Shown: in pieces, positions 6,277 to 56,451 of the stretch
How positions within the stretch are numbered: the stretch's first letter is position 1
Layout: each line of letters opens with the position of its first letter
Origin: an uncultured bacterium
Lineage (GTDB): Bacteria > Verrucomicrobiota > Kiritimatiellia > RFP12 > UBA1067
Assembly (NCBI GenBank): GCA_902799385.1
Contig: CADCAK010000020.1
Location: 33,771-97,770, forward strand
DNA: 64,000 nucleotides
Direction of reading: 5' to 3'
Notes under the pieces: generated by a model
Seen by the model: only the letters and a program-made list of their open reading frames with translations
Told to the model about the DNA's origin: nothing
Database searches by the model: none
Program-made: the position numbers and the translations under genes

Positions 6277-7566
6277 GCAAGCAGCCACTTCCATGCCGGC
6301 ACGATGCGAATGCCGTCGGACTCGCCTTCGTCGTCCCACGTCACAATCGTGCAGTCGCGTATTCCCGTCTCGTCGCGGGCGAGCTTCAGCGCATTCATCT
6401 CACGGCCAAATGTAGCCGCATCAGACATAGCGTATGAAACCTGAATCAGGCTCTCCTTGCGCGACACTTTGTCGTGAACATGGAAATCAACCTCGGTTCC
6501 GTCGTCGTTGGCAATATAGGAGATCTTGCCACCCTTGCGTCGCAACGACATATAGACGATTCTCAAGCATCCATCCCCGCTCGGCGTCGTTCTTCACGCA
6601 CATCGCGCGAATCAGCCCAGGATCCACCAGATAGTATTTGTCCGGGTTCACTCGCTTTACCGCAAGCGAATCTGAAAGAACAGATACGGAATAGGAGAGA
6701 TATGCATCCTTAAACCAGTCAAGATAGTCCGCAATGCTCTCGCGGTTTGCCGGCAGGGAAAGATTCTTCAGGACGCCGGAGATGCTTCGCGTGGACGTTT
6801 TGCGCGCGTAGTTATGGAAAAGATACTCCAAAGTGTACTTGAGCACCTGAACGCTCGGCACGGAATGGCGTTCTATGATGTCCCTGTAGATTACGGCATC
6901 GACATACCCCTGGAGCATAGATGCGCGCATCCCGTCGGAAACATCCTGCACATCGGGAAATCCTCCGCGTTCCATGTAGTCCGACATCGCCCTGCGCATG
7001 AGCCCCTTCTCCCGTGCCGTGAACCCAGCGCGTGGAATCTTCTTGAACACTCCGTTGAACCTAAGATATTCCGGGAAAGACAGCGGGAACACCTCTATTG
7101 GAAGCGAACGGCCGCGCATCTGCGTAGCAATCTCTTCTGAAAGCAGCTTTGAGGACGAGCCTGTGAGGCAAAGCTGCACGTTTGGCGAATCAACAAGCCG
7201 CCGAGCGTATGACTCCCATCCTTTGATGTTCTGAAGCTCGTCAAGAAAATACCATGTCTTGCCGTCGGCAAATTCAGGATAGAGCTCGGCATGGATTTCT
7301 CCAATCAGGCGCAAATCGTCTACCTTCAGCCCCGACAGCCGCTCGTCCTCGAAATTGACATGAACTATCCGTCCCAGAGGAATGCCGTCATCCAGAAGCC
7401 GTTTCATGCGTCCATAGGCAAGGAAGGTCTTGCCTGTTCGACGCATACCCTTTATCACCGTCGAAGCACGCAACTTCTCGGCATATTCCACATCACGCGA
7501 GACGATTCCGCCTGGAACCCCATCGTGATAGAATTCGCGCATTACAGACATCAACTCTTCTTTCAC
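6273..7566 (-). pseudogene. AAA+ ATPase/DUF4143 (COG1373 type) with a single-nucleotide frameshift
   Basis: ORF 6487..7566 (GMRRTGKT, WYFLDELQ) continues in another frame as ORF 6273..6566. The junction is ...ERGWMLEN / (I)VYMSLRRKGG near 6555-6570. No homopolymer or slippery run at the site. Confidence 0.75.
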
Positions 7567-7599: not shown

Positions 7600-7608
7600 A
7601 TTATACCA
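7600..7608 (-). promoter_or_regulatory. extended -10 element TGGTATAAT
   Basis: Lies 34 nt upstream of ATG 7566. Confidence 0.55.
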
Positions 7609-7733
7609 AACGCCATTAATATTGGCAAGTGTGCCTTGCCAATATTGTATAAAATTGGCAAGGCGCGACACACCATCCTAGTGCATGTATCATTTGCTTT
7701 TTCACAAGTTCGTTCCTTTCGAATTTCTTTTTT

Positions 7734-7938
7734 GACAGGATTTACAGGATTAACAGGATTGTTTTTTAAGCAGGTAGAGCAGGAGATGCAGGAGAGTTTA
7801 GGTCCGCCTTCGGCGGGGTTTGGGGGCAACCCCAGTCTTCCTCCTGCTTCTCCTGTTCTCCATGCCAAAAACCATCTTCTGTATCTCCTGTTCTCCATGC
7901 TAAAATCCTGTTAATGTGGCGCACCTTGTTAATCCTGT
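7734..7938. repeat. palindromic MITE-like element; its arms are built of RACAGGATT 9-mers
   Basis: Left arm GACAGGATTTACAGGATTAACAGGATT...AGCAGGTAGAGCAGGAGA. Central GC hairpin. Right arm TCTCCTGTTCTCCATGCTAAAATCCTGTTAAT...AATCCTGTC. A second copy lies at 54939-55072. Confidence 0.75.
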
Positions 7939-7977
7939 CTAAAAACCTTCCCGCGACAATCCGCGCAAATATCTTGT

Positions 7978-8175
7978 TTAATGTTGCCATTGTGGAAGTG
8001 TTGCCAATTCCAATGTTGCCAATTTCCAACTGGTCCGCCGTAGCCTTGGCGTAGGCGAATTGGTAATCGGTATTGGTAATGGCAACACTTTTTCACATCT
8101 TGACCTCGGTAGCCTCGGCGAAGGAGGTTGGCAACATTCTCCCCCGGCCCGCGCAAATGTCATTCGAGTATTCAT
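7978..8175 (-). other. repeat-derived ORF opened by the MNTRMTFARAGG module and running through CCAAT/TTGCCAAT-rich filler
   Basis: ATGAATACTCGAATGACATTTGCGCGGGCC at 8175. Downstream it reads ...WKLATLELATLPQWQH*. Composed entirely of modules seen elsewhere in the window. Confidence 0.3.
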
Positions 8176-8210
8176 GTGTTCGTTTCCTTTCGATTGCATT
8201 GTTGGAGATA

Positions 8211-8573
8211 TCAAGTTTTCCCCAATGAAAACATGACAAAGCCACCTAAACAGGCCAGCACATGAAACAGCAAAAGCAGCGCAAGGCAAATGTTGACGGT
8301 CTTTTTACTGCTCGACAGCAAGCACATTCCAACAAGCGTAAAATATGCAATATACAATGAAGCACACAGCCAGAAAAACACTAAACCCTCGCCTATCACT
8401 CGACCCAACAATAATACATCGACCGCATAAACCAAAAACACAGGTGCCAAGGCGAACATCGCCAGTGCAATCTTGAAAAAATGGCTGGCATCCACAAACA
8501 AAGCGCTTATCAGCGACATTGCGCATCCCATCACCAGCACACACGCCAACCGCCCTTTTATGCCGAACTTCAT
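8211..8573 (-). CDS. small integral membrane protein (about 4 TM)
   Basis: Hydrophobic throughout. ATGA overlap with the upstream gene. Confidence 0.6.
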   Translation of the reverse strand: MKFGIKGRLACVLVMGCAMSLISALFVDASHFFKIALAMFALAPVFLVYAVDVLLLGRVIGEGLVFFWLCASLYIAYFTLVGMCLLSSSKKTVNICLALLLLFHVLACLGGFVMFSLGKT

Positions 8574-9682
8574 ACTTCCGCTCCTTTCTTAATCCTGTCA
8601 ATCATGTTAATCCTGTCTAAAAGGCCATCTCCTTTCACGATCAGTTTGAAATAGTCTTCGCATTCCTGTCCCTTGCAATTGAAGAGAAAGACAAGCCCCC
8701 ATCGTATGTGCTCGGAGTACATTGCTTTCGGAACCGTGAACGCGAAGCTGCCCGCATGAACCAATGCAGGGGAATCCGCTTCGTACACCGTCTCCTGGAT
8801 ATCCTTCTCCTGCGTGCCCGCCTCGCGTATCGCGCCGTCGGACTGGACGAGCAAGACCTTTAGTGCGTTCGGCGCGGAAGCGCCAGCGAATTCGTAACAG
8901 ACGCACATCTCCGCGCCAGTCCTCCACTTGCCGCCCGTGAACGTGACCTTGTAGTGCGGCTGAGCTGCCTCGCGCCTGACCATACGGACTACAAACGCCG
9001 CATAGGTACCTACCACCGCCACAGGCGAGACAATGAGAAAGCATTTGAACGCAAAAGGATCAGTGAAAAGTTGAAAGCCCTTAAGCCCGATTATGAGCCC
9101 AAGCGCTGCTATGCATCCCAGGAAGCCGCCGACCAATTTTGGAAGATCAAGATCGCGCGACCTTCTCAGGCAAACGGTCTGCTTGCCCCGCACGGTTGTC
9201 TTGCCCTTGAGAAATGGCCTTGCCAGCTCATGGACACCGATTAAAAAGACCAGCATTCCGATTAAGAAGAAAATCACAAACAAGATTATCGGAAGGACAT
9301 TGTGCATCACCAGCGCAAATACCCTGAAAAACATTGGAAGATTCGTATCGCCAGCTCTGGCATTCTCGGCCACCGTGCTGCAGACGCCGAGAACTCCCAA
9401 CAGGGCAAACATCGCACCCAATATGACAAACATGAACTTGCCCATCAACGAACCCGGTTTTGGCTTTTCGTCCCCTCTGGAGAACAGCATCGCGATACCT
9501 GATGCGACTACGACAACGCCGAGCGCCCAAAATCCGGAAAAGAACGTGTACATCATCCACCGTCCGTATGGATCAGGAACATCACTCTTGCCCACCCCCG
9601 AGCTACATGAAAAGAGCCACGTGATGACGGCAAGAATGCTGCACCAAACGATGCCGAACAAAAGAAGCGAAGCCTTCTTCAT
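8570..9682 (-). CDS. membrane protein (about 6 TM plus a soluble C-terminal domain) of unknown function
   Basis: MKKASLLLFGIVWCSILAV. The C-terminal 16 aa (LLDRINMIDRIKKGAEV) are encoded by the (RACAGGATT)3 repeat at 8589-8622. Confidence 0.65.
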   Translation of the reverse strand: MKKASLLLFGIVWCSILAVITWLFSCSSGVGKSDVPDPYGRWMMYTFFSGFWALGVVVVASGIAMLFSRGDEKPKPGSLMGKFMFVILGAMFALLGVLGVCSTVAENARAGDTNLPMFFRVFALVMHNVLPIILFVIFFLIGMLVFLIGVHELARPFLKGKTTVRGKQTVCLRRSRDLDLPKLVGGFLGCIAALGLIIGLKGFQLFTDPFAFKCFLIVSPVAVVGTYAAFVVRMVRREAAQPHYKVTFTGGKWRTGAEMCVCYEFAGASAPNALKVLLVQSDGAIREAGTQEKDIQETVYEADSPALVHAGSFAFTVPKAMYSEHIRWGLVFLFNCKGQECEDYFKLIVKGDGLLDRINMIDRIKKGAEV

Positions 9683-16289: not shown

Positions 16290-16400
16290 TGTGTTGAATG
16301 TGCAAATATCCAATATCCAACAGCCAATATCCAATTTGCCCCGCCATCATTGAATAATGGATACTGGATATTGGATACTGGATAATTGCACATTCCATTC
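16290..16400. repeat. simple-sequence filler rich in CCAATATCC / TGGATA words
   Basis: gcaaatatccaatatccaacagccaatatccaatt...ggatactggatattggatactggataatt. Related words occur at 16781-16812. Confidence 0.6.
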
Positions 16401-16407
16401 CCACCAT

Positions 16408-16767
16408 TCACTGCTTGCAAATCCGTTTCCGCGCCGTGGACACGCTTGCGCCGAATATCCGCGAAATCTCCTGCGATTCCGTTATCAAGTCAGCAAGCTT
16501 CGTCTTTTCCACATAGCCTGATTCGCCAATCAGTTTGAGCCATATCCGCGTCTCAGACAACTCTTTCATGGACACCTTCAGCTTGTGCACGAAATCCTTG
16601 CCGGACTCCGCCTCGCAAGCCTCGGCGTAGTTTGCCGCGACGCTCGTAGAAGAACGAAAGAGCTGATCTGCGAAATTCGCGCTTCCGATATTCTTCACCG
16701 GCAACGCGGCGCACACCTTGACGCACCTCGCCGCAAATGCGACTACTCTGTCTTCAAGATCATTCAT
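16408..16767 (-). CDS. four-helix-bundle protein (23S rRNA intervening-sequence protein / Avd family)
   Basis: FADQLFRSSTSVAANYAEACEAESGKDFVHKLKVSMKELSETRIWLKLI matches the family signature as I remember it. Confidence 0.8.
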   Translation of the reverse strand: MNDLEDRVVAFAARCVKVCAALPVKNIGSANFADQLFRSSTSVAANYAEACEAESGKDFVHKLKVSMKELSETRIWLKLIGESGYVEKTKLADLITESQEISRIFGASVSTARKRICKQ

Positions 16768-16791
16768 CTTCTCTCCTCCACTGGATATTGG

Positions 16792-16914
16792 TTATTGGAT
16801 ATTGGATATTTGCACATTTTCACATTTCCCGCTCCCCCTACGCAGAGCGTCCACCTTCGCCAAGGCTACGGAGGACAAGACGGAGGACAAGTTGATTCGT
16901 GCAAATGGTTTCAT
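16792..16914 (-). other. upstream ORF MKPFARINLSSVLSSVALAKVDALRRGSGKCENVQISNIQ (module C/D)
   Basis: Preceded by AAAGGAGCACCCC. Ends 24 nt before ATG 16767. Confidence 0.35.
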
Positions 16915-18336: not shown

Positions 18337-18504
18337 TCATTGACAATTGGAATTGGTCTTGGAAACATTTTCACATTTGCAACATTTCCCGCTCCCCTTA
18401 CACAGAGCGTCCACCTTCGCCAAGGCTTCCCCCTTCGCCAAGGCTACGGAGGACAAGACGGAGGATAAAACGGAGGACAAGTTGATTCGTGCAAATGGTT
18501 TCAT
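18337..18504 (-). other. upstream ORF MKPFARINLSSVLSSV...CCKCENVSKTNSNCQ (module C/D)
   Basis: Its ATG overlaps the TGA of Sel1 gene 18501..19238 (ATGA). It stops 13 nt before ATG 18323. Confidence 0.4.
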
Positions 18505-19339: not shown

Positions 19340-19426
19340 TCATTGGCAATTGGAATTGGTCTTGGCAACATTTTCACATTGGCAATATTCTCCTCCAACC
19401 CGCGCAAATATCATCCGCGTATTCAT
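19340..19426 (-). other. upstream ORF MNTRMIFARVGGEYCQCENVAKTNSNCQ (module A fused to module D)
   Basis: Its ATG overlaps the TGA of gene 19423..20529, in the context GGAGGAATCGAAATGA. Confidence 0.4.
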
Positions 19427-20529
19427 TTCGATTCCTCCGTTGACGGTTCTTCTTGTCCTTCTCGCCAAAGGCGCGAGGTCCTTATTTGCGGAAACAAGCC
19501 ATCCGAAATGCTGACAACCGCTCGCAATTCACATTCGTCTGGAAGATCAAACCGCTTGCGAACCTCCTCGGGACGACGCCAAACATAGACACTGAGCCTT
19601 ATGCCGTCTGGACGCACCGCATCCAGCCGGAACCGCCAAGCCCCCGGCTCACTGTCGGCCGAAACGCGGTCAACCGCGCCGTCGCAGTCGAAGCCGTCGG
19701 CCCGAGCCAGCTTCAGAACCTCGTCTTCAGCAGCCTTGCGCTCTTCGTTCGAGAGCGACATTGGATAGTTGCGACCGAACGCGATACCGGAGATCGTCTT
19801 CGTGCGCAGCGAATATTCGGCGTAGCTGTGCGTGAAGAGTGGATGGTCAAGCGGCACGCAATCCTCTCTCCAGTAGCGAACCTTAACTCCACCCACTTCA
19901 ATGCAACCGTCGAGAAGCGTCGCCCCCGGCGGCGCGACCTTTGGAATCTTCACTCCAAGAAGTTTGTCGGGGAACTCAGTAGCCTGCGGCACCTGCGGAG
20001 GAGGCTCGCCGTTTTCCTTCACCCACGCCGCCCACTCGTCGTCATTCATCAGCCGCACCGACAAGTCAAGCACCTTTTGGTTGTCATCGCATTCCTTAAA
20101 GTGAAACTCGCCCGCAAGCCCTGAGTTAGCCGCCCAGATCATCCTCATAGGGTCGTGAGTCCAACGACTACTACTTAACGTGCCCTTGGCTCGAACTGCA
20201 GGCAGTTCTAATTGACAATCCCATATCAATTCCTCCCGCGACTTGCTGTCCCATTCCTGCGAAAGGTCGCGCGAACGCAGGACGATACATTCCGCCCTGC
20301 CCGAAGCACCGCGCACGACTCTCGCCCACTTCCAGTCCTTGTGCTTGACATTCACCCACTGCCCCGTCGAATTCAGCGACGCCACCTCAATTCCAAACAA
20401 CTGTTCCGGCAATTCTGCCGCGCGTCCCCACGCCACATTCGCCACCACCGCCTCGCCATGCCTGGCCATGATGGCAATCGCTATGGCCGCAGCAATCGCA
20501 AGCGCTGCAAATACGATTTTCTTATTCAT
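19423..20529 (-). CDS. secreted 368-aa protein of unknown function
   Basis: MNKKIVFAALAIAAAIAIAIMA is a signal/anchor sequence. The last codons (TEESK) are encoded by the junction module. Confidence 0.65.
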   Translation of the reverse strand: MNKKIVFAALAIAAAIAIAIMARHGEAVVANVAWGRAAELPEQLFGIEVASLNSTGQWVNVKHKDWKWARVVRGASGRAECIVLRSRDLSQEWDSKSREELIWDCQLELPAVRAKGTLSSSRWTHDPMRMIWAANSGLAGEFHFKECDDNQKVLDLSVRLMNDDEWAAWVKENGEPPPQVPQATEFPDKLLGVKIPKVAPPGATLLDGCIEVGGVKVRYWREDCVPLDHPLFTHSYAEYSLRTKTISGIAFGRNYPMSLSNEERKAAEDEVLKLARADGFDCDGAVDRVSADSEPGAWRFRLDAVRPDGIRLSVYVWRRPEEVRKRFDLPDECELRAVVSISDGLFPQIRTSRLWREGQEEPSTEESK

Positions 20530-20621
20530 GCTCCCGTTCCTTTCTTAATCCTGTCAATCCTGTTAATCCTGTCTAAAAACCTTCCCGCGCCGCCCCGCGC
20601 AAACATCATCCGCGTATTCAT
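20526..20621 (-). other. upstream ORF MNTRMMFARGGAGRFLDRINRIDRIKKGTGA (module A plus 9-mer repeat)
   Basis: Its TGA overlaps ATG 20529 (ATGA). It starts 15 nt after the ATPase stop. Confidence 0.45.
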
Positions 20622-23553: not shown

Positions 23554-23928
23554 TTAGCGTATTAATTTCGTGGACTCTTCAATCTCACAAACTATGGGGG
23601 CATTATCCTCGTCAACCAACACCAGGGCAAATGGCCTATCAATGCCAGGCGATAGATAGTTCACCGCTTCCGAATATGCCTTGCCGTTTACAACAGCATA
23701 AAGGCCACCTTCAGCGTAATCGCGAAGTTTCACGATTTCGACGCAACTAGGCTTGATTGTCGTTTCGCAAACAACCTTATCTCGCACAGATAGTTTACAG
23801 CACATCTCCTTTCCCGATACATTGACAAGCATTACTTGCAGAGCTGAGTTATACCAACAATAGACTAATCCGCAAAGGCTTAAACCAACCACAACCGCAA
23901 GCGCGGCAAATATGATTATCTTCTTCAT
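23554..23928 (-). CDS. small secreted or membrane-anchored protein
   Basis: MKKIIIFAALAVVVGLSLCGLVYC. ATGA overlap with the upstream ORF. Confidence 0.55.
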   Translation of the reverse strand: MKKIIIFAALAVVVGLSLCGLVYCWYNSALQVMLVNVSGKEMCCKLSVRDKVVCETTIKPSCVEIVKLRDYAEGGLYAVVNGKAYSEAVNYLSPGIDRPFALVLVDEDNAPIVCEIEESTKLIR

Positions 23929-24020
23929 GCTTCCGTTCCTTTCTTAATCCTGTCAATCCTGTTAATCCTGTCTAAAAACCTTCCCGCGACGGCCCGCACA
24001 AACATCATCCGCGTATTCAT
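23925..24020 (-). other. upstream ORF MNTRMMFVRAVAGRFLDRINRIDRIKKGTEA
   Basis: Module A plus (RACAGGATT)3. Its TGA overlaps ATG 23928. Confidence 0.45.
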
Positions 24021-36757: not shown

Positions 36758-36987
36758 CCACGCGACAAAGTTAAGCGAGTCGAAGCTCCATCGTTCGGCG
36801 GTGGCCGAAGGCTCCTCCTCGGGGAACCCTCGGCGAATACGCCGTATCCCCTCGCTCGGACCTTCGCTCCCCCGCCTCACTTACCGCACCAACTACAGCA
36901 AATTGCCTATCACAGTTACAACGGGCACCGCGGGGACAGACCCCACGAAACCAGCTATTTTATTGGCTTTCATCACCGCACCGCCTT

Positions 36988-37809
36988 TCACGCCACCCTT
37001 TCCGCCGCCTTCGCGAGCCGCCATCCGTGCGTCGCGTAGCCTATCTCTCCCACCTCCCTTGCCGCGACGCTTCGCGACCGGAACCTGTCCCCCAGCGCAA
37101 ATGCCGTCGCAGTCACGAACGCGAGACTTCCGAATATCTTCCCCGCCCCTATCTGCGCCACCCTCCTCATCAGCCTCTCGTCGGGGACAGGCCCCGCGGA
37201 AGTGCCGTCAGACGTGGCGATCCAGCTCCAGGCGTAGTCGGCGGCGTGCTTCACCATCCCCGCACGGACGGGGTTCAGGTAGACGTAGCGCATGCAGAGC
37301 GCACGGTAGCGACCGTCCTCGACCAAGGTCGACTTGAAGCGGCCGTCCCATATCGAGCCGCTGTAGTCGTGCTCGCGCTTGAACCAGACGTTGAAGAGCT
37401 CCTTGAACGTCTTTATGAACTCGCTTACGTCGTTCATCCGCGCACGAAGGCGATCCTGCGCCTCGGCAACTGCGGAATCCATGCCGATGTCGCGAAGCTC
37501 CTTCCAGTGCTCGGCGAGTTCGGCTGCCGCTCGCTCGCCCTTCAGCGCCGCGACACGGCGGAGTAACTCGTCCTCGGTCAGCTCCTCCCCGCCATGCACC
37601 ACCTTGCAGACTATGTGGAAGTGGTTATCCATCGCGACATACGCCTCGAGCTCCACTCCAGAGAACGCCGCCGCGCGCTTCAGTGCATTCACGAGCTGCG
37701 TCTTGATCCTCCCCTTCACGAACAGGAAACGCCTGTCGTTCGTGCGCGACATGAGGTGGTATCGCGCGGTTCCGTTGTTCGATTTCTTGATCCTTGCCGG
37801 TCTTGCCAT
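36988..37809 (-). CDS. REP-associated tyrosine transposase-like protein (IS200/HUH Y1 family)
   Basis: HUH motif DNHFHIV and catalytic-Tyr region YVYLNPVRAGMV. Confidence 0.8.
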   Translation of the reverse strand: MARPARIKKSNNGTARYHLMSRTNDRRFLFVKGRIKTQLVNALKRAAAFSGVELEAYVAMDNHFHIVCKVVHGGEELTEDELLRRVAALKGERAAAELAEHWKELRDIGMDSAVAEAQDRLRARMNDVSEFIKTFKELFNVWFKREHDYSGSIWDGRFKSTLVEDGRYRALCMRYVYLNPVRAGMVKHAADYAWSWIATSDGTSAGPVPDERLMRRVAQIGAGKIFGSLAFVTATAFALGDRFRSRSVAAREVGEIGYATHGWRLAKAAERVA

Positions 37810-37850
37810 TTGTAGTCCTTTCTGCCGACGCTTCCTGCATCGACAGAAAC

Positions 37851-37859
37851 ATCATACCA
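37851..37859 (-). promoter_or_regulatory. extended -10 element TGGTATGAT
   Basis: Lies 42 nt upstream of ATG 37809. Confidence 0.45.
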
Positions 37860-37898
37860 CATTTCGGCGAAAGAAAAATGAACCGAATATGAATTCGT

Positions 37899-40436
37899 TT
37901 AGGGGGTCGCCGCCCGGCGGAAAGACGGCAAGGAGGCTAAAATGGGAGCCGTGGCAGGGCCGATGTCAGGAAAGTACTGAAAAATCTGGCTTTCGTGGGG
38001 TCTGTCCCCGCCGATCTGTCCCCGGTTGTGTATGCCTTCTATCTGAACATGAAACGGTATTCTTTCTAACATTTTCTCGGCTTTTTCAAGATCTCCCTTT
38101 CGTGTCTCGTCCATCGCCACATTGTTTCGCTTAGCAACAGCTTTCAAAAGCCCCATATAGTCTCCACTCTCATGCAACTGGCGCAACTCTTCCCAATCTC
38201 GCTCTGTAATAACAATGGAGTGTATGTACGGGATTAGTGCCTTTTGTACTATAAGATGGTCTGCGATATCGAACGACAAAGGCAATGTTTGAATTTTCTT
38301 AAATATCTCGCTTGTATATTTATCCAACTCTTGCCTTTCCGCTTCCAACTTTAGTTTTAACTCAGCCTGACGCTTCCGTTCTGTCTCTTCAGTTTTCAAT
38401 TTCAATTCTTGCTGTTCACGCTCTAAGTCCGCTTGCCGTTCTCGCTTGGCCTTTTCTATGGCTGCTGGGTCACGAAGTGAAAAGAAGTTTGATGAAATCA
38501 ATGGGTTAAACTTTTTATTTATCTCCAGCATGCGCAAATTATGATCTTCCAATGATATTTTTCTCTCCTGATATGCGTTATCGATTTCTTCCGCCTCCTC
38601 ACCAAGTCGTCGCATTTGTTCATGAGATTCACTTAATCCCTGATAAACATCGTGATTACTTTCAAAATAAATTTTTTGCTTCAAACCATAAAAAACGTCA
38701 TAATCAATATCTCCTTCCTTGTGGTTTATATTAAGCACCGTTGCCAACTTATTTAATGCTTCCCATTTTCCTATTAAGATTGTTTCATCCGCAAAAGCGA
38801 CATGACTCAATCCCCAATCCATAAATAACGCCTCAAATGGCGTAAAGCTTTCAAAAATCTTTATCCTTGATAGATTATACTTTTTGATAGTGCGATCACT
38901 CATATCAAAGCCACTATACTTCAGATTCCATTCTCGACAGTTGTTAATTGTAATTGCGCCGCATCTTACTTCATTCGGTATCTGCAATTCAATGTTAGCA
39001 CTAAAATTCTTCTTCTTGAGCCCAAGAAATAACTGCGATATTTCCGAAAGCTCAGGATAGTCTTTATATCGATTAGTCAGCGTGCCATTATTAGCAAGTA
39101 TATCATAACTGACATTCAACGCACCAAGCCAATCTTTTGCCGCACATTTCTTGCGAAGCTCATTCCATGCAAAGTGCTTTACCTCTATCTTAATCTGATC
39201 GGCATACGGCGCGACTGCTTTATCTACCATAATTCGCTTTGAAATATCAAACTCAAGCGAGGAGAATAGTTTAGCTGCAAACTCCTTTTTAAATGCCTCT
39301 TGATTTTCTTTGCGCGTACGATAATCATCTTCTTTAGCTTTCTCGGTTCTGGATTTCCATACGGTGGCATCTGCCTCACTCAACATGGCAAATACATCAA
39401 CTGTATTGTGCAACCCAGACTTAGAGGTGTATGACGCTTGGGCACCAGTCGCTTTTACGACTCCCCACGGCGGATTTTCTCCTGCCCGTAGATTTCGTGT
39501 ACTCTGCATTTTTATGAACACAGGTGTCCATGCGCTTCTTGGATTATCCGCAACAATGTTTTTAGTTGGCCACACAAGAATGCCATCAGAAAAGACTTGC
39601 AATATCCGTAAGAAGTAAACTTCCCCCATCTCATAGAATTCACCCGCAGTAGGCAAGCATAGATCATGGTATATGACAAAGTCGGCTACAGTAAGACGTG
39701 CGTGTTTCTCGGAAAAACCCCTCTCCATGTCTTCCGCATAGCGTATGAGCTTATATATGTCTTCCTCCTCTAAAGCTACATGCTGCGCATTAGATACTTT
39801 CGACTCCACGAATTCGAGCTTTGCGGGTTTCTGGTTGAAAAGCAAAGTGAAAAATGACGATATAGCCACTGCAGCAATCGCAGCCAACACATTCCCCTTG
39901 ATTCCGATTCTCTTTAAAGTATCACCTATCGCTACTGCTTTACCTGTTTGCGTTGCTAAGGTGTTCCTTCGCCACAATATGATTCCAAGGTAACAAAGCC
40001 CAACCGATACTATAGCAACAAACGGATTCTTAAACATTACCGCCAACAAAATGGAGCCAACCATTAGAACATTGGGCATATATCCACGAAAAACTGCATA
40101 GTCGATCAACTTGATCAAGCCTGCTCGTCTCTCTTGGCACTTACCCTGTGAAACTGCTAGTTTTGGCGACAAATTGCAATACTTGATCAGCAGTTTCCAC
40201 TTGCGAACAAAAAACTTGGCGCACTCTTCCAAAAATGATGTAATTTTCCGTTGCATGCTTTCTGACCGCGCATCAGAAATAGAACACGAGTTTTGCTGCG
40301 AGTCGGGGCTCGACGATTCTGACTCTCCTTTGTAGGAGAATTTGGACTCGCAGTACGGACATAGCAGATGCTGCCCGATAACGGGCGAAATCTCGCATTC
40401 GCAACATTCACCACAAACAGGACATTCTATTTGCAC
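37899..40436 (-). CDS. 845-aa zinc-ribbon membrane protein of unknown function (AT-rich gene)
   Basis: GTG start with SD AGGAGA. CPVCGECCECEISPVIGQHLLCPYC ribbon, then TM cluster at about aa 120-210, a coiled-coil KRERQADLEREQQELKLKTEE, and an internally duplicated ~55-aa segment. The last ~40 codons lie in GC-rich REP/IR sequence. Confidence 0.7.
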   Translation of the reverse strand: MQIECPVCGECCECEISPVIGQHLLCPYCESKFSYKGESESSSPDSQQNSCSISDARSESMQRKITSFLEECAKFFVRKWKLLIKYCNLSPKLAVSQGKCQERRAGLIKLIDYAVFRGYMPNVLMVGSILLAVMFKNPFVAIVSVGLCYLGIILWRRNTLATQTGKAVAIGDTLKRIGIKGNVLAAIAAVAISSFFTLLFNQKPAKLEFVESKVSNAQHVALEEEDIYKLIRYAEDMERGFSEKHARLTVADFVIYHDLCLPTAGEFYEMGEVYFLRILQVFSDGILVWPTKNIVADNPRSAWTPVFIKMQSTRNLRAGENPPWGVVKATGAQASYTSKSGLHNTVDVFAMLSEADATVWKSRTEKAKEDDYRTRKENQEAFKKEFAAKLFSSLEFDISKRIMVDKAVAPYADQIKIEVKHFAWNELRKKCAAKDWLGALNVSYDILANNGTLTNRYKDYPELSEISQLFLGLKKKNFSANIELQIPNEVRCGAITINNCREWNLKYSGFDMSDRTIKKYNLSRIKIFESFTPFEALFMDWGLSHVAFADETILIGKWEALNKLATVLNINHKEGDIDYDVFYGLKQKIYFESNHDVYQGLSESHEQMRRLGEEAEEIDNAYQERKISLEDHNLRMLEINKKFNPLISSNFFSLRDPAAIEKAKRERQADLEREQQELKLKTEETERKRQAELKLKLEAERQELDKYTSEIFKKIQTLPLSFDIADHLIVQKALIPYIHSIVITERDWEELRQLHESGDYMGLLKAVAKRNNVAMDETRKGDLEKAEKMLERIPFHVQIEGIHNRGQIGGDRPHESQIFQYFPDIGPATAPILASLPSFRRAATP

Positions 40437-54896: not shown

Positions 54897-54938
54897 GGCT
54901 ATTTTTGTTTTTAGGTTTTAATTAAGAAATATTTTTTA

Positions 54939-55072
54939 GACAGGATTTACAAGATTTACAAGATTTTTTAAGCAGGTAGGGCAGGAGATACAGGAGAATA
55001 TCTGGGGTTTTACCCCAGACCCCAAACTCCTGTTTCTCCTGTTCTCCATGCTAAAATCCTGTTAATCCTGTC
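54939..55072. repeat. palindromic MITE-like element, copy 2
   Basis: GACAGGATTTACAAGATTTACAAG...CTGGGGTTTTACCCCAG...AATCCTGTTAATCCTGTC, located between the PFK stop and the purH-like start. Confidence 0.75.
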
Positions 55073-55080
55073 AAAAAAAC

Positions 55081-56451
55081 TCACGGGGCGAAGGCGTCGC
55101 CTGCGAAGAGGTCGCGCGGAACGCCATTGAAGTAGAACTCCTGGCCGGTCGCGTCGAGGACGCTGCGCCAGGACTGGCCGTCGGTGTCGAGCTTCTGGCG
55201 CTCAATAGTCGCAAGCGCAATCGGCACGAGCGCGAAGCTCTCGCCAATGTTGCCGACGACGCAGTCGATGCGGCCCGCCATCGCGGCGTGAACTGCAGCG
55301 CGCGCAAGCTCGTAGCAACGTATCGCGTCAGTGCCGCGCGCGGGGCAGCTGCGGATGATGTAGCTCGGGTCGATGTACTTTACGCTCGCATTGAAGCCCT
55401 TCTCCTTGAAATGCGCGGAGATGCGGCGCTTCAGGAACTCTCCGATGTCCTTCTTGAGGATGTTGCCGCTCGCGTCGCGCTCCTCGGCGCCTTCCATCAG
55501 CTCCTGCCCCGCGCCCTCGGCGGCGACGACGACGGCATGGGACTTGCCTGCGGCGAAACGGCGCTCGAGCGCACGCAGAAGCCCGCGCTCGCCATCGAGT
55601 TCGAACTTGACCTCGGGAACAAGGCAGAAGTTCACGACGGGATTCGCCACCGTCGCGGACGCCGCGATGAAGCCGGAGTCACGGCCCATGAGCTTTACGA
55701 GGCCGATGCCATGGGGCGTCCCCTTCGCCTCGACGTGCGCGCTCCTTATGACCTCGGCGGCCTCGGCGACCGCGCTCTCAAAGCCGAAGCTGCGCCCCAC
55801 GAACATGAGGTCGTTGTCGATCGTCTTCGGTATGCCTACGACAGAAATCTTGAGGCCGCGCTTCAGCACTTCCGCCGCGATGTCGCTCGCGCAGCGCAAG
55901 GAACCGTCGCCGCCGATGCAGAAGAGGACGTTGATGTTCATCCTCTCGAGCGTATCTACCATCACGTCCGCAGGCTGCTGGCCTCGGCTCGAACCGAGGA
56001 CCGTGCCGCCCGCCTCGTGGATCGTGTCCACGGCGTCGGTGTTGAGGAGCATTGGCTCGTAGCCGTACTTGGGGTTGAGCCCAGCATAGCCGTAGCGGAT
56101 GCCGAACACCTTCTTTACGCCGTAGTCGAACTCGAGTATCTCGACAAGCCCCTTGATGACCGTGTTGAGCCCCGGGCATAGCCCGCCGGCGGTCACGATG
56201 CCGACGCGCGTCCAGCGCGGGTCGTGGAAAATCGTCTCCTTCGGCCCCGCCTTCTCGAATGTCGGGAGATGCCCGAGCTTCGTCTCGGCAAAACGCGCAT
56301 GCGACTCGCTCTCCGTGGCGAAGACCCGCTCTCCGTCCGCAACGTACTTGCGGTGGCGGACCGGCGACGGAAGCTTGCAGGCCCCGAGCGTCTTTACGGT
56401 GCAGACGAACTTCTCGCGGTCGGACAGTATCTTGTCGAGTATGGCTGACAT
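55081..56451 (-). CDS. 6-phosphofructokinase (PFK family; ATP- versus PPi-dependence not resolvable here)
   Basis: TAGGLCPGLN, IGGDGS, MGRDSGF. Confidence 0.9.
   Translation of the reverse strand: MSAILDKILSDREKFVCTVKTLGACKLPSPVRHRKYVADGERVFATESESHARFAETKLGHLPTFEKAGPKETIFHDPRWTRVGIVTAGGLCPGLNTVIKGLVEILEFDYGVKKVFGIRYGYAGLNPKYGYEPMLLNTDAVDTIHEAGGTVLGSSRGQQPADVMVDTLERMNINVLFCIGGDGSLRCASDIAAEVLKRGLKISVVGIPKTIDNDLMFVGRSFGFESAVAEAAEVIRSAHVEAKGTPHGIGLVKLMGRDSGFIAASATVANPVVNFCLVPEVKFELDGERGLLRALERRFAAGKSHAVVVAAEGAGQELMEGAEERDASGNILKKDIGEFLKRRISAHFKEKGFNASVKYIDPSYIIRSCPARGTDAIRCYELARAAVHAAMAGRIDCVVGNIGESFALVPIALATIERQKLDTDGQSWRSVLDATGQEFYFNGVPRDLFAGDAFAP

What the first reader, a model, noticed from the sequence alone, without database searches (positions are those of the whole stretch)
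7734..7938. RACAGGATT 9-mer arrays form a palindromic MITE-like element and also encode a recurrent LDRINRIDRIKKG peptide
Two full palindromic copies exist (7734-7938 and 54939-55072). Their arms are GACAGGATT(T/A)ACAGGATT..., and each has a central GC hairpin. Three half-copies (8589-8622, 20545-20579, 23944-23978) are always in the same orientation and always directly 5' of a start codon. There they are read in one frame as (F)LDRIN(R/M)IDRIKKG(T/A)E(A/V). In one case this forms the C-terminal tail of a real 370-aa membrane protein; in two cases it forms the body of a uORF. Conservation of both frame and position suggests function (peptide, RBS delivery via AAGAAAGGA, or a protein-binding iteron) rather than random MITE scatter.
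Basis: seen in the sequence. Interest (0 to 1): 0.6.

Follow-up and report, generated by a model that had tools for sequence, protein, structure and literature searches.

The report
Mobile hairpin repeats at gene junctions
The repeated GACAGGATT words are the arms of a small hairpin-forming, apparently selfish DNA element found in many bacterial phyla (its complete form carries a small nuclease-like gene); in this rumen bacterium, single arms fused to a ribosome-binding site serve as standard connectors between accessory genes, and the "peptide" they spell is a by-product.

Summary
In detail: 15 RACAGGATT hits against 0.66 expected, two long hairpins and three solo arms just 5' of start codons.

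- **Spread.** The same word array, in the same layout (T-run, TAGACAGGATT(N-ACAGGATT)n, variable core, inverted array, A-run), occurs in more than 10 phyla. It is intergenic and often abuts a stop codon.
- **Cargo.** In four fetched cassettes the arms bracket a GxxExxY (PD-(D/E)XK-type) gene. In 69 of 120 clusters of that protein subfamily the C-terminus is encoded by this word.
- **Mobility.** The PFK-purH copy is missing from close relatives, so it is an insertion.
- **Solo arms.** They belong to a portable module: arm, AAGAAAGGAG, 8 nt, start codon. The upstream frame stops on the start (ATGA/GTGA). The module recurs at about 39 junctions in rumen Kiritimatiellae, in front of at least 12 unrelated genes. 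One contig is a chimera whose crossover lies inside the module.
- **Peptide.** It is incidental. Third codon positions are invariant, variation is non-synonymous and identical in untranslated arms, and about 55 of 59 homologue clusters of the 370-aa protein lack the tail.

Verdict: a MITE-like derivative of an undescribed cassette family, co-opted as a junction that works like an engineered bicistronic design. The mobilising enzyme and the translational role are inferred.

The parts
7728..7945 (.). Full palindromic copy 1, long form and partly decayed. From left to right: T-run; left arm of 3 units (7734-7760); GTTTTTTAA linker; inner GCAGGTAGA/GCAGGAGAT/GCAGGAGAG array (7770-7796); central GC hairpins (about 7801-7836); inverted inner array with a partial duplication (7841-7900); right arm (7904-7912 and 7931-7939, split by 18 nt); A-run.
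   Evidence: D14, D15, I9; fold -48.1 kcal/mol, z -8.29.
54932..55079 (.). Full palindromic copy 2. Parts: left arm 54939-54965; inner array 54972-54998; central hairpin CTGGGG-TTTTA-CCCCAG 55002-55018; inverted inner array 55028-55052; right arm 55055-55072. It begins 1 nt after the PFK stop codon (55081-55083, minus strand) and ends 35 nt before the purH start (54896).
   Evidence: fold -38.1 kcal/mol, z -8.51. The element is absent from the same spacer in L306/L307 (42-nt spacer) and L311 (66 nt).
8574..8622 (-). Solo arm (8591-8617, 3 units, the middle one ACATGATT) with its TTTTA head, followed by the SD module AAGAAAGGAGCGGAAGT. It ends on the ATG (8573-8571) of a 120-aa membrane-protein gene. 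Read in frame a, it gives the last 17 codons of the 370-aa ORF 8570-9682.
   Evidence: (D5).
20530..20579 (-). Solo arm (20547-20573) plus the SD module AAGAAAGGAACGGGAGC. It ends on the ATG (20529-20527) of a 368-aa gene.
   Evidence: (D4, D5).
23929..23978 (-). Solo arm (23946-23972) plus the SD module AAGAAAGGAACGGAAGC. It ends on the ATG (23928-23926) of a 124-aa gene.
   Evidence: (D4, D5).
20526..20621 (-). 31-codon mini-ORF MNTRMMFARGGAGRFLDRINRIDRIKKGTGA. It is made of the start module plus the arm plus the SD. Its TGA overlaps the next ATG (ATGA).
   Evidence: (D1, D2).
23925..24020 (-). 31-codon mini-ORF MNTRMMFVRAVAGRFLDRINRIDRIKKGTEA. Its TGA overlaps the next ATG (ATGA).
8570..9682 (-). 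370-aa multi-pass membrane protein. Its last 22 residues or so (IVKGDGLLDRINMIDRIKKGAEV) replace the native C-terminus (...EDYF(K/R)LPAK) seen in about 55 of 59 homologue clusters.

Best explanation
**What the arrays are.** The GACAGGATT arrays are the terminal inverted arms of a widespread family of small hairpin-forming cassettes.
- In the complete form, the two arms bracket one small gene for a GxxExxY protein (PD-(D/E)XK nuclease fold). The left arm lies 10-25 nt before the gene's start, and the gene's tail often runs into the right arm.
- The two full copies in this window are gene-less (MITE-like) derivatives. One sits directly after the PFK stop codon and is an insertion relative to close relatives.
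- Their arms enclose a second, nested palindrome built of GCAGGAGAT words around a GC hairpin.

**What the half copies are.** They are the left arm plus the cassette-type translation start region (arm, AAGAAAGGAG, 8 nt, ATG/GTG).
- In rumen Kiritimatiellae this roughly 55-nt module has become a portable connector between co-oriented accessory genes.
- It stops translation coming from upstream in every frame: TAG at the arm's head, TAA/TGA at the spacers, or ATGA on the next start.
- It presents an unstructured, purine-rich stretch carrying a strong Shine-Dalgarno sequence. It thereby re-starts translation of whatever gene follows, much as an engineered bicistronic design does.
- Because the module is repeated, it is also where gene order is reshuffled by recombination.

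**The peptide.** LDRINRIDRIKKG is a by-product of the one open frame.

**Shown:** anatomy, distribution, cargo association, insertion polymorphism, junction recurrence, one chimeric junction, and lack of peptide-level constraint.

**Inferred:** that the GxxExxY protein mobilises the arms, that the module couples translation, and that the palindromes are transcribed hairpins.
For: **Enrichment and fold.** 15 hits against 0.66 expected. Hairpin z-scores are -8.3 and -8.5.

**Cross-phylum family.**
They include cultured Thioalkalivibrio, Spirosoma and Thiobaca, and the archaeon Methanoperedens.
- 70 arm pairs face each other (+ then -), against 8 in the opposite order. Arms are the same and cores differ.
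- Coding overlap is 13% against 86% background. All gene orientations occur. 10 of 49 neighbouring gene 3' ends lie within 2 nt of the arm.

**Cargo.**
- The arms bracket a TIGR04256 GxxExxY gene in L020 and L095 (128 and 145 bits) and in L314 and L322. In L322 the YceI stop codon is the TAG of TAGACAGG.
- 69 of the 120 nearest GxxExxY clusters end in residues encoded by this word; among the 40 closest it is 35.

**Insertion.** The PFK-purH spacer is 42 nt in L306/L307, 66 nt in L311 (PurH 94% identical) and 184 nt here.

**Abundance.** The left-arm bin has 14-44 times the contig depth of its flank in four rumen DNA runs. It is also present in metatranscriptome contigs.

**Junction module.**
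- 36 rumen-contig junctions plus 3 in the window show an overlapping stop/start, with at least 12 unrelated downstream genes.
- Six further arms not selected by the pattern have the same layout.
- L216 joins the window's 8.6-kb upstream part, including its ACATG variant, to the window's 20.5-kb downstream gene. The crossover lies inside AAGAAAGGAGCGG|GAGC.
- The arm+SD mRNA is unstructured (z +0.7, +1.9, -0.5).
- The intact four-helix-bundle cassette in this window (16292-16818) shows the same arm-SD-ATG layout with another word.

**Peptide.**
- In 200 units, variation occurs only at codon positions 1 and 2, and third positions are at least 98% invariant. The profile is the same in translated and untranslated arms.
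- The tail is absent from about 55 of 59 homologue clusters.
Against: - No GxxExxY cassette with these arms was found in the window.
- No target-site duplication could be defined.
- The metagenome pattern contained the SD itself, so the junction sample is biased towards starts. Some contigs are the same locus from different samples.
- Only one of the four cassettes (L322) has a clear SD after the arm.
- Translational coupling and recombination at the arm are inferred from sequence only; no read-level RNA evidence exists.
- Outside this lineage, solo arms are not start-proximal.
Confidence: 0.6

Rival explanations
1. The arms are operator or iteron sites, or RNA sites, for one sequence-specific binding protein. 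That protein would co-regulate the accessory surface-protein genes. The 9-nt words would be the recognition units, and their position next to the SD would let the protein control translation or transcription.
For: - The word is conserved at the nucleotide level, including third codon positions.
- The position next to the SD is fixed at about 39 junctions.
- A published analogue exists: TAACTGA heptamer arrays just 5' of start codons in Beggiatoaceae, for which a post-transcriptional regulator was proposed (PMC4679880).
Against: - The identical word occurs in more than 10 phyla and in all gene contexts. A lineage-specific regulator does not explain this.
- No candidate binding protein was found in the window.
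- The cargo association points to an element-encoded protein instead.
Confidence: 0.15
2. The palindromes are host-selected RNA hairpins between cistrons. They would act as mRNA stabilisers, RNase III processing sites or attenuators, like REP in malEFG or Correia elements. They would not be selfish insertions.
For: - The hairpins are long and stable.
- They sit between co-oriented genes at nearly every junction of some contigs.
- The arms appear in metatranscriptome contigs.
Against: - The element is present or absent at the same site in close relatives.
- 14 of 51 cross-phylum copies lie between divergent genes.
- On both strands a T-run precedes and an A-run follows the hairpin, which is not terminator geometry. 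No terminator-like site was scored.
- This rival does not exclude a selfish origin.
Confidence: 0.2
3. The island is an integron-like cassette array. The palindromes would be attC-like sites recombined by a dedicated site-specific recombinase located outside the window.
For: - The genes are co-oriented, promoterless-looking and mostly small, include a hipBA pair, and are separated by imperfect palindromes with conserved ends and variable centres.
- The layout 'arm-gene-arm-inverted arm' at 8622->7728, 16818->16292 and L188 3963-5485 is what integration of a circular unit at an arm would give.
- GATTAAC/GTTAATC in the arms differ by one base from the attC core sites RYYYAAC/GTTRRRY. This comparison rests on my own knowledge of integrons.
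Against: - None of the window ORFs scanned (about 50 of the 56 of at least 120 aa) is an integrase or any other recombinase. The proximal end of the island (about 26 kb) abuts core genes.
- The core-site match fails at one position and exists only in units with an A spacer.
- In other phyla the same elements are single and lie in any gene context.
- Solo arms are not expected from attC x attC exchange.
Confidence: 0.1
4. The peptide (F)LDRINRIDRIKKG is the selected product, as a C-terminal tag or a regulatory leader peptide.
For: The same frame is open at all junctions, and it ends exactly on the next start codon.
Against: - It is the only frame of the arm without a stop, which follows from the sequence itself.
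- Third codon positions are at least 98% invariant, while codon positions 1 and 2 vary (N/Y/D, R/K/M). Untranslated palindromic arms vary in the same way.
- About 55 of 59 homologue clusters of the 370-aa protein end before the tail.
Confidence: 0.04

Closest known systems
MITEs and other palindromic intergenic repeats (REP/REPIN-RAYT, Correia elements, Rickettsia palindromic elements)
   Same: - Small, non-coding, hairpin-forming, multi-copy and mostly intergenic.
- Insertion polymorphism between relatives.
- Gene-less copies share their ends with gene-carrying copies.
- They can extend ORFs in frame.
   Different: - The arms are tandem arrays of one 9-nt word, and the same word occurs across more than 10 phyla, while the cores are unrelated.
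- The gene-carrying form holds a GxxExxY nuclease-fold gene, not a DDE or Y1 transposase.
- No target-site duplication and no GTAG head were found.
- The RAYT-like gene in this window has a different cognate repeat.
23S rRNA intervening sequences, and the cassettes of TIGR02436 four-helix-bundle (IVS protein) genes
   Same: - Inverted arms form a long stem around one small ORF.
- One such cassette, with TGGATAY heptamer arms, lies in this window (16292-16818) and has the same arm-SD-ATG layout.
   Different: The copies here lie between protein genes rather than in rRNA, and they are gene-less. The cargo found with this word is GxxExxY, not the four-helix-bundle protein.
TAACTGA heptamer direct repeats of Beggiatoaceae, Cyanobacteria and Bacteroidetes (MacGregor 2015, PMC4679880)
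   Same: - Short tandem words in forward orientation, within a few nucleotides 5' of start codons.
- They overlap the ends of upstream ORFs.
- The distribution across phyla is patchy, and the paper states that no transfer mechanism is evident.
   Different: - The unit is 7 nt rather than 9 nt.
- The repeats have stops in all three frames and usually replace the SD, whereas here they precede one.
- They are almost never inverted (1 of 170 sets), and no cargo gene is linked to them.
Mycobacterial interspersed repetitive units (MIRU), and engineered bicistronic designs (BCD; Mutalik et al. 2013, cited from my own knowledge)
   Same: A short intercistronic ORF whose stop overlaps the next start codon, with the SD for the next gene embedded in its 3' end. 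This makes downstream translation independent of context.
   Different: MIRUs are 46-101-bp units restricted to mycobacteria. BCDs are synthetic. Here the leader ORF is built from a mobile-element arm and recurs naturally in front of unrelated genes.

Membership tests
MITE | Small (<600 bp) non-coding element with terminal inverted repeats | tested here: met
   The copies are 148 and 218 nt long, with arms of 2-3 units at each end. No ORF with a family match lies inside them.
MITE | Many dispersed copies, and presence/absence at orthologous sites | tested here: met
   - About 70 arms occur in 118 kb of related rumen contigs.
- The arm bin has 14-44 times the depth of its flank.
- The PFK-purH site is empty in L306/L307 and carries a different, much shorter array in L311.
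MITE | Target-site duplication | tested here: inconclusive
   The ends are T-run/A-run and are part of the palindrome. The spacers at empty sites are too diverged to define a duplication.
MITE | Ends shared with an autonomous element that encodes the transposase | tested here: inconclusive
   The ends are shared with cassettes that carry a GxxExxY gene. That protein is not a demonstrated transposase.
REP/REPIN-RAYT | 20-40-nt imperfect palindrome with a conserved GTAG head, flanking a RAYT gene | tested here: not met
   The arms have no GTAG head. The RAYT-like gene at 36988-37809 is flanked by a different 21-nt inverted repeat, GCGGGGACAGACCCCACGAAA.
Integron attC site | Core sites RYYYAAC...GTTRRRY, and an intI integrase at the head of the array | tested here: not met
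   GATTAAC/GTTAATC miss the consensus by one base, and only in units with an A spacer. No integrase was found among the window ORFs scanned. The attC covariance model was not available.
Array-armed GxxExxY / IVS-protein cassette (undescribed in the literature; flagged by earlier agents of this scan) | Inverted tandem-word arms bracketing one small GxxExxY or four-helix-bundle gene; gene-less copies share the arms | tested here: met
   - L020, L095, L314 and L322 carry GxxExxY between GACAGGATT arms.
- 69 of 120 homologue tails are encoded by the word.
- The window copies are the gene-less form.
MIRU-like intercistronic mini-ORF | Small ORF overlapping the stop and start of the flanking genes | tested here: met
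   ATGA, GTGA or TAATG overlaps occur at nearly all of the 39 junctions.
MIRU-like intercistronic mini-ORF | Tandem 46-101-bp units, variable in number, in mycobacteria | tested here: not met
   The units are 9 nt, 1-4 per arm, and the host is Kiritimatiellae.
Intrinsic terminator | GC-rich stem followed by a U-run | tested here: not met
   On both strands a T-run precedes and an A-run follows the hairpin. The scan found no terminator-like site in either element.
Known RNA family (Rfam 15) | Match at gathering score | tested here: not met
   No match anywhere in the window.

The most novel reading that the evidence does not exclude
Inverted 9-mer arrays would mark a pan-bacterial class of mini-cassettes that are moved by their own GxxExxY nuclease-fold protein.

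In rumen Kiritimatiellae the system would have been domesticated into an integrase-less, integron-like way of building operons. Each incoming gene would arrive with an arm that acts at once as the recombination joint, as a three-frame translation stop, and as a ribosome-restart site. Arrays of unrelated surface-protein genes could then be assembled and shuffled yet still be expressed.
Probability: 0.18. Interest if true: 0.85.

Novelty: new variant of a known kind. Interest (0 to 1): 0.6.

Why it matters
- **A role for GxxExxY proteins.** This very large protein family (PF13366/TIGR04256) has essentially no literature: 3 papers mention it. If the cargo link holds, the family gains a biological role and a defined DNA word to test it on.
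- **A mechanism for shared repeat arrays.** It would explain why identical short tandem-repeat arrays turn up in unrelated phyla, which MacGregor 2015 left without a mechanism.
- **A natural expression part.** The junction module is a natural counterpart of the synthetic bicistronic design. It shows how mobile-element ends can be recycled into standard expression parts that let accessory genes be swapped without loss of translation.
- **Annotation.** It warns against calling the NPVNPV or LDRINRI tails and the 31-codon mini-ORFs real protein features.

Tried and rejected
- **Known RNA families.** Rfam gave no match in the window.
- **Promoter or terminator role.** No consensus site was found in either palindrome.
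- **RAYT as mobiliser.** The RAYT-like gene at 36988-37809 has its own, unrelated flanking repeat.
- **Integron.** No integrase was found and the core-site match is imperfect.
- **GxxExxY relatives in viral contigs.** The scan matched 82 patterns but confirmed none.
- **The word in viral contigs.**
  - 63 stretches were found, of which 16 are true palindromic pairs.
  - Several others are collagen-like Gly-X-Y coding repeats, that is, false positives.
- **Metagenome scan.** About 60 of 120 hits were one chance match inside a human-gut transporter-like gene and were discarded.
- **RNA runs.** They are held only as contigs, so they show that arms occur in transcripts but give no ends or strand.
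- **Target-site duplication.** It could not be determined.
- **Literature.** The two-unit strings occur in no paper of the library.
Full report
**1. Observation**

RACAGGATT occurs 15 times in the 64-kb window, against 0.66 expected from shuffles.

Two clusters are complete palindromes.
- Copy 1 spans 7728-7945 and copy 2 spans 54932-55079.
- Each reads: T-run; two or three GACAGGATT-type units; a T-rich linker; a second array of GCAGGAGAT-type 9-mers; a central GC hairpin; then the mirror image, ending in an A-run.
- As single strands they fold into long hairpins. The energies are -48.1 and -38.1 kcal/mol with z = -8.3 and -8.5, and none of 200 shuffles folds as well.
- Copy 1 is decayed. It has a partial internal duplication and an 18-nt interruption of its right arm (family D14).

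Three solo arms lie on the minus strand at 8591-8622, 20547-20579 and 23946-23978.
- Each is followed by AAGAAAGGA(A/G)CGG(G/A)AG(C/T) and an ATG.
- The copies at 20.5 kb and 23.9 kb are not independent. They sit in a 129-nt block that is 93% identical (D4).

**2. The organism and the island**

Earlier notes of this scan identify the genome as a rumen-type Kiritimatiellae. The nearest PurH homologues agree: they are named Kiritimatiellae MAGs.

Positions 1 to about 26,000 form a lower-GC accessory island. All its genes are on the minus strand. They include AAA_14/DUF4143 ATPases, Sel1 proteins, hipBA and many small exported or membrane proteins without family matches.

An earlier agent described the MNTRMMFARAVAG start module that recurs at the gene junctions (e1-2802547). 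I confirm that module (D1 and D2). I also confirm that the 31-codon mini-genes it mentions are start module + arm + SD.

**3. The word array is not lineage-specific**

*Genome scan.*
- The carriers include Acidobacteriota, Verrucomicrobiota, Chloroflexota, Bacteroidota, Gamma- and Betaproteobacteria, Desulfobacterota, Planctomycetota, Chlamydiota and Nitrospinota.
- They also include the archaeon Methanoperedens and cultured strains: Thioalkalivibrio denitrificans ALJD, Spirosoma terrae KCTC 52035 and Thiobaca trueperi DSM 13587.
- Chance alone predicts about 70 hits in 596 Gb. Chance does not predict the architecture.

*Architecture.*
- 70 arm pairs face each other (+ then -) within 700 nt, against 8 in the opposite order.
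- The ends are the same everywhere: (T)nT(A/G)GACAGGATT...AATCCTGTC(T/C)A(A)n. The cores are unrelated.

*Context.*
- The elements are intergenic, with 13% coding overlap against 86% for the loci as a whole.
- They occur between tandem, divergent and convergent genes (29, 14 and 8 cases).
- In 10 of 49 cases the neighbouring gene ends within 2 nt of the arm. The stop codon is then often the TAG or TGA of the element's own head.
- In the window, copy 2 starts 1 nt after the PFK stop.

*Other collections.*
- IMG/VR contigs also carry the word: 63 stretches with 16 true pairs. Several hits are collagen-like coding repeats.
- No paper in the library contains the two-unit string.

**4. Cargo**

Earlier agents of this scan had linked other word families to GxxExxY or IVS-protein genes. 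I tested this for the present word.

*Fetched cassettes.*
- In L020 (Chthoniobacterales) and L095 (Blastocatellia) the arms bracket a gene that matches TIGR04256 'GxxExxY protein' at 128 and 145 bits. The ORF ends ...NPVNPV inside the right arm.
- L314 and L322 show the full cassette between YceI and an aldehyde dehydrogenase gene.
- In L322 the YceI stop is the TAG of TAGACAGGATT. There the arm is followed by AGGAAAGAAAGGAAAAGCG-ATG of the GxxExxY gene. The gene ends in ...AATCCTGTCTAA, 21 nt before the next start.

*C-terminal tails.*
- I searched the protein database with the L095 protein and read the C-termini of the 120 best clusters.
- 47 end in NPV-type repeats (AATCCTGTN read in frame 1).
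- 4 end in ...IL and 3 in ...SC. These are the other two frames, which stop at the first TAA.
- 15 end in RQD or QDLQD, which is the forward word.
- In all, 69 of 120 have a C-terminus encoded by this word. Among the 40 closest the figure is 35.

*Limits.*
- The association of this protein subfamily with this word is therefore strong.
- A rumen contig of the window's lineage (L215) has a more distant GxxExxY gene (34-37% identical) as one cassette of such an array. That gene is followed by a different word, CGCAGACGA. This fits word-protein pairing, but it is a single case.
- The literature on the family is almost nil. That the protein mobilises the arms is an inference.

**5. Mobility**

| Locus | PurH identity to window | PFK-purH spacer | Content |
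|---|---|---|---|
| L306/L307 | 90% | 42 nt | no element |
| L311 | 94% (PFK 3' end nearly identical) | 66 nt | a short array of another word, CTCTGCG x3, at the same place |
| Window | - | 184 nt | the 148-nt element, 1 nt after the stop |

- When contigs of four rumen metagenomes are laid on the locus, the left-arm bin has 14-44 times the depth of its flank.
- Many loose ends of unrelated sequence start exactly at 54932-54934 and at 55071-55077.
- Many contigs have the same arms around other, shorter cores.
- Two metatranscriptome runs show the same pattern. They are contigs only and may contain DNA.
- No target-site duplication could be defined.

**6. The solo arms are a portable junction module**

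*Sample.*
- About 60 are a chance match inside one human-gut gene and were discarded.
- 36 rumen-contig junctions have the arm followed by AAGAAAGGAG, 8 nt and ATG or GTG.

*Stop/start overlap.* In nearly all, frame a runs open through the arm and stops on the start codon (ATGA, GTGA or TAATG).

*Upstream partners:*
- the MNTRMMFAR start module (13 cases);
- the C-terminus of the 370-aa protein (4 cases);
- a 268-aa ORF;
- several others.

*Downstream genes.* There are at least 12 unrelated families: signal-peptide proteins of 110-450 aa, and cytoplasmic-looking proteins starting MKVNKVYAEEIA, MKIEAEKMGERV or MKNKAELPMM.

*Further observations.*
- Six more arms in the same contigs were not selected by my pattern because their SD differs. 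They show the same arm-17 nt-ATG layout.
- Unit number varies from 1 to 4.
- Some contigs carry a palindrome or an arm at almost every gene junction.
- L216 is a clear chimera. It is identical to the window's 8.6-kb locus upstream, including the rare ACATGATT unit. It is identical to the window's 20.5-kb gene downstream. The switch lies inside AAGAAAGGAGCGG|GAGC.
- The same upstream gene is followed by four different genes in the window, L216, L181 and L236.

The module is therefore where gene order changes. Outside this lineage, solo arms are not enriched near starts: 7% against 4% within 20 nt.

**7. How the module probably works (inference)**

- The arm closes all three frames of incoming translation. 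Frame b meets the TAG or TGA of the head. Frame c meets TAA or TGA at the first A or G spacer. Frame a ends at ATGA on the next start. This follows directly from the sequence.
- The arm+SD stretch is predicted to be single-stranded, and the whole 116-nt region is no more structured than shuffles (z +0.7, +1.9, -0.5).
- Each unit contains AGGA, and the module ends in a strong SD.
- This is the logic of an engineered bicistronic design and of MIRU mini-ORFs. A short translated leader ends on the next start and carries that gene's SD, so any gene placed behind it is translated regardless of context.
- The layout arm-SD-ATG is also that of intact cassettes: L322, and in this very window the TIGR02436 four-helix-bundle gene at 16408-16767 with TGGATAY heptamer arms.
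- I therefore read the solo arms as 5' halves of cassettes whose cargo has been exchanged.

**8. The peptide is incidental**

- In 200 units from the window and related contigs, all variation lies at unit positions 1 and 5. In frame a these are codon positions 1 and 2, giving D/N/Y and R/K/M.
- Third codon positions are at least 98% invariant.
- The profile is the same in 104 translated units and 96 units of palindromic or other arms. This is the opposite of what peptide-level selection produces.
- One caveat: units were defined as at most 1 mismatch. That limits the amount of variation seen but not where it falls.
- Of 59 homologue clusters of the 370-aa protein, about 55 are 349-352 aa and end ...EDYF(K/R)LPAK or similar. 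Only four carry the arm-encoded tail.

**9. What it is not**

- No Rfam family matches.
- There is no promoter- or terminator-like site, and the T-run/A-run geometry is the reverse of a terminator on both strands.
- It is not the cognate repeat of the RAYT-like gene at 36988-37809, which has its own 21-nt inverted repeat.
- No integrase or other recombinase is present among the window ORFs scanned (about 50 of the 56 of at least 120 aa).
- The integron reading stays open at low probability. The recurrent layout 'arm-SD-gene-arm-core-inverted arm' is what integration of a circular unit at an arm would produce. It occurs at 8622->7728, 16818->16292, L188 3963-5485 and L166 7858-6703.

**10. Verdict**

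- The finding is real.
The peptide idea is not.
- Relative to the literature, this is a new variant of the palindromic-repeat/MITE kind. Its arms are tandem arrays of one 9-nt word shared across phyla, it has a GxxExxY-carrying full form, and in one lineage an arm+SD half has been reused as a standard gene connector.
- The closest published parallels are MacGregor's TAACTGA repeats (PMC4679880) and the GGGNATC repeats of Rehm et al. (PMC4692102).
The junction sample is biased by the search pattern and partly redundant. The roles of the GxxExxY protein, of translational coupling and of recombination at the arm are inferred, not shown.

Noticed in passing
window 36930-38011: A RAYT-like Y1 transposase gene lies at 36988-37809 on the minus strand. 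It scores 33.9 bits on PF01797 and 67 bits on NF047646, below that model's 80-bit cut-off. It is flanked by a perfect 21-nt inverted repeat, GCGGGGACAGACCCCACGAAA. This is a REPtron-like unit whose word is unrelated to GACAGGATT.
   Followed up: partly
window 16292-16818: An intact cassette of a sister kind. A TIGR02436 four-helix-bundle (IVS-protein type) gene at 16408-16767 (minus strand) sits in the layout arm-SD-gene-arm-inverted arm. The arms are built of TGGATAY heptamers ending in TTGCACA.
   Followed up: partly
L311 about 1435-1470, compared with window 54897-55080: In a relative whose PurH is 94% identical, a different word array (CTCTGCG x3, the reverse complement of CGCAGAG) occupies the site right after the PFK stop, where the window has the GACAGGATT palindrome. 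The same CGCAGAGAC word precedes arms in L190 and L227. This suggests a shared landing site for several word families.
   Followed up: no
window 7946-8210, 2122-2190, 18337-18395, 19340-19395: More junction filler built from other short words (TTGGCAA/ATTGGCAAC arrays) and decayed copies of the MNTRMMFAR start module. The island's intergenic DNA is a mosaic of a few recurring modules.
   Followed up: no
window 7600-7628 (minus strand): A strong sigma-70-like site, TTGCCA-17-TATAAT (11 of 12, with TG), lies between palindrome 1 and the AAA_14 ATPase gene that starts at 7566.
   Followed up: no
L215 5736-6209: A rumen contig of the same lineage carries a GxxExxY gene as one cassette of a co-oriented array. 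The gene is followed by a CGCAGACGA x2 array, then by one GACAGGATT unit + SD + the next gene.
   Followed up: partly
L175, L166, L188 (rumen contigs): The outer flank of right arms is also conserved: CCTGTCTAAAAA-GAAATTTGAAAGGAAC-N5-8-start. Full palindromes too are followed by a standard SD module. The flank of the window's copy 1 at 7700-7733 has this module.
   Followed up: partly
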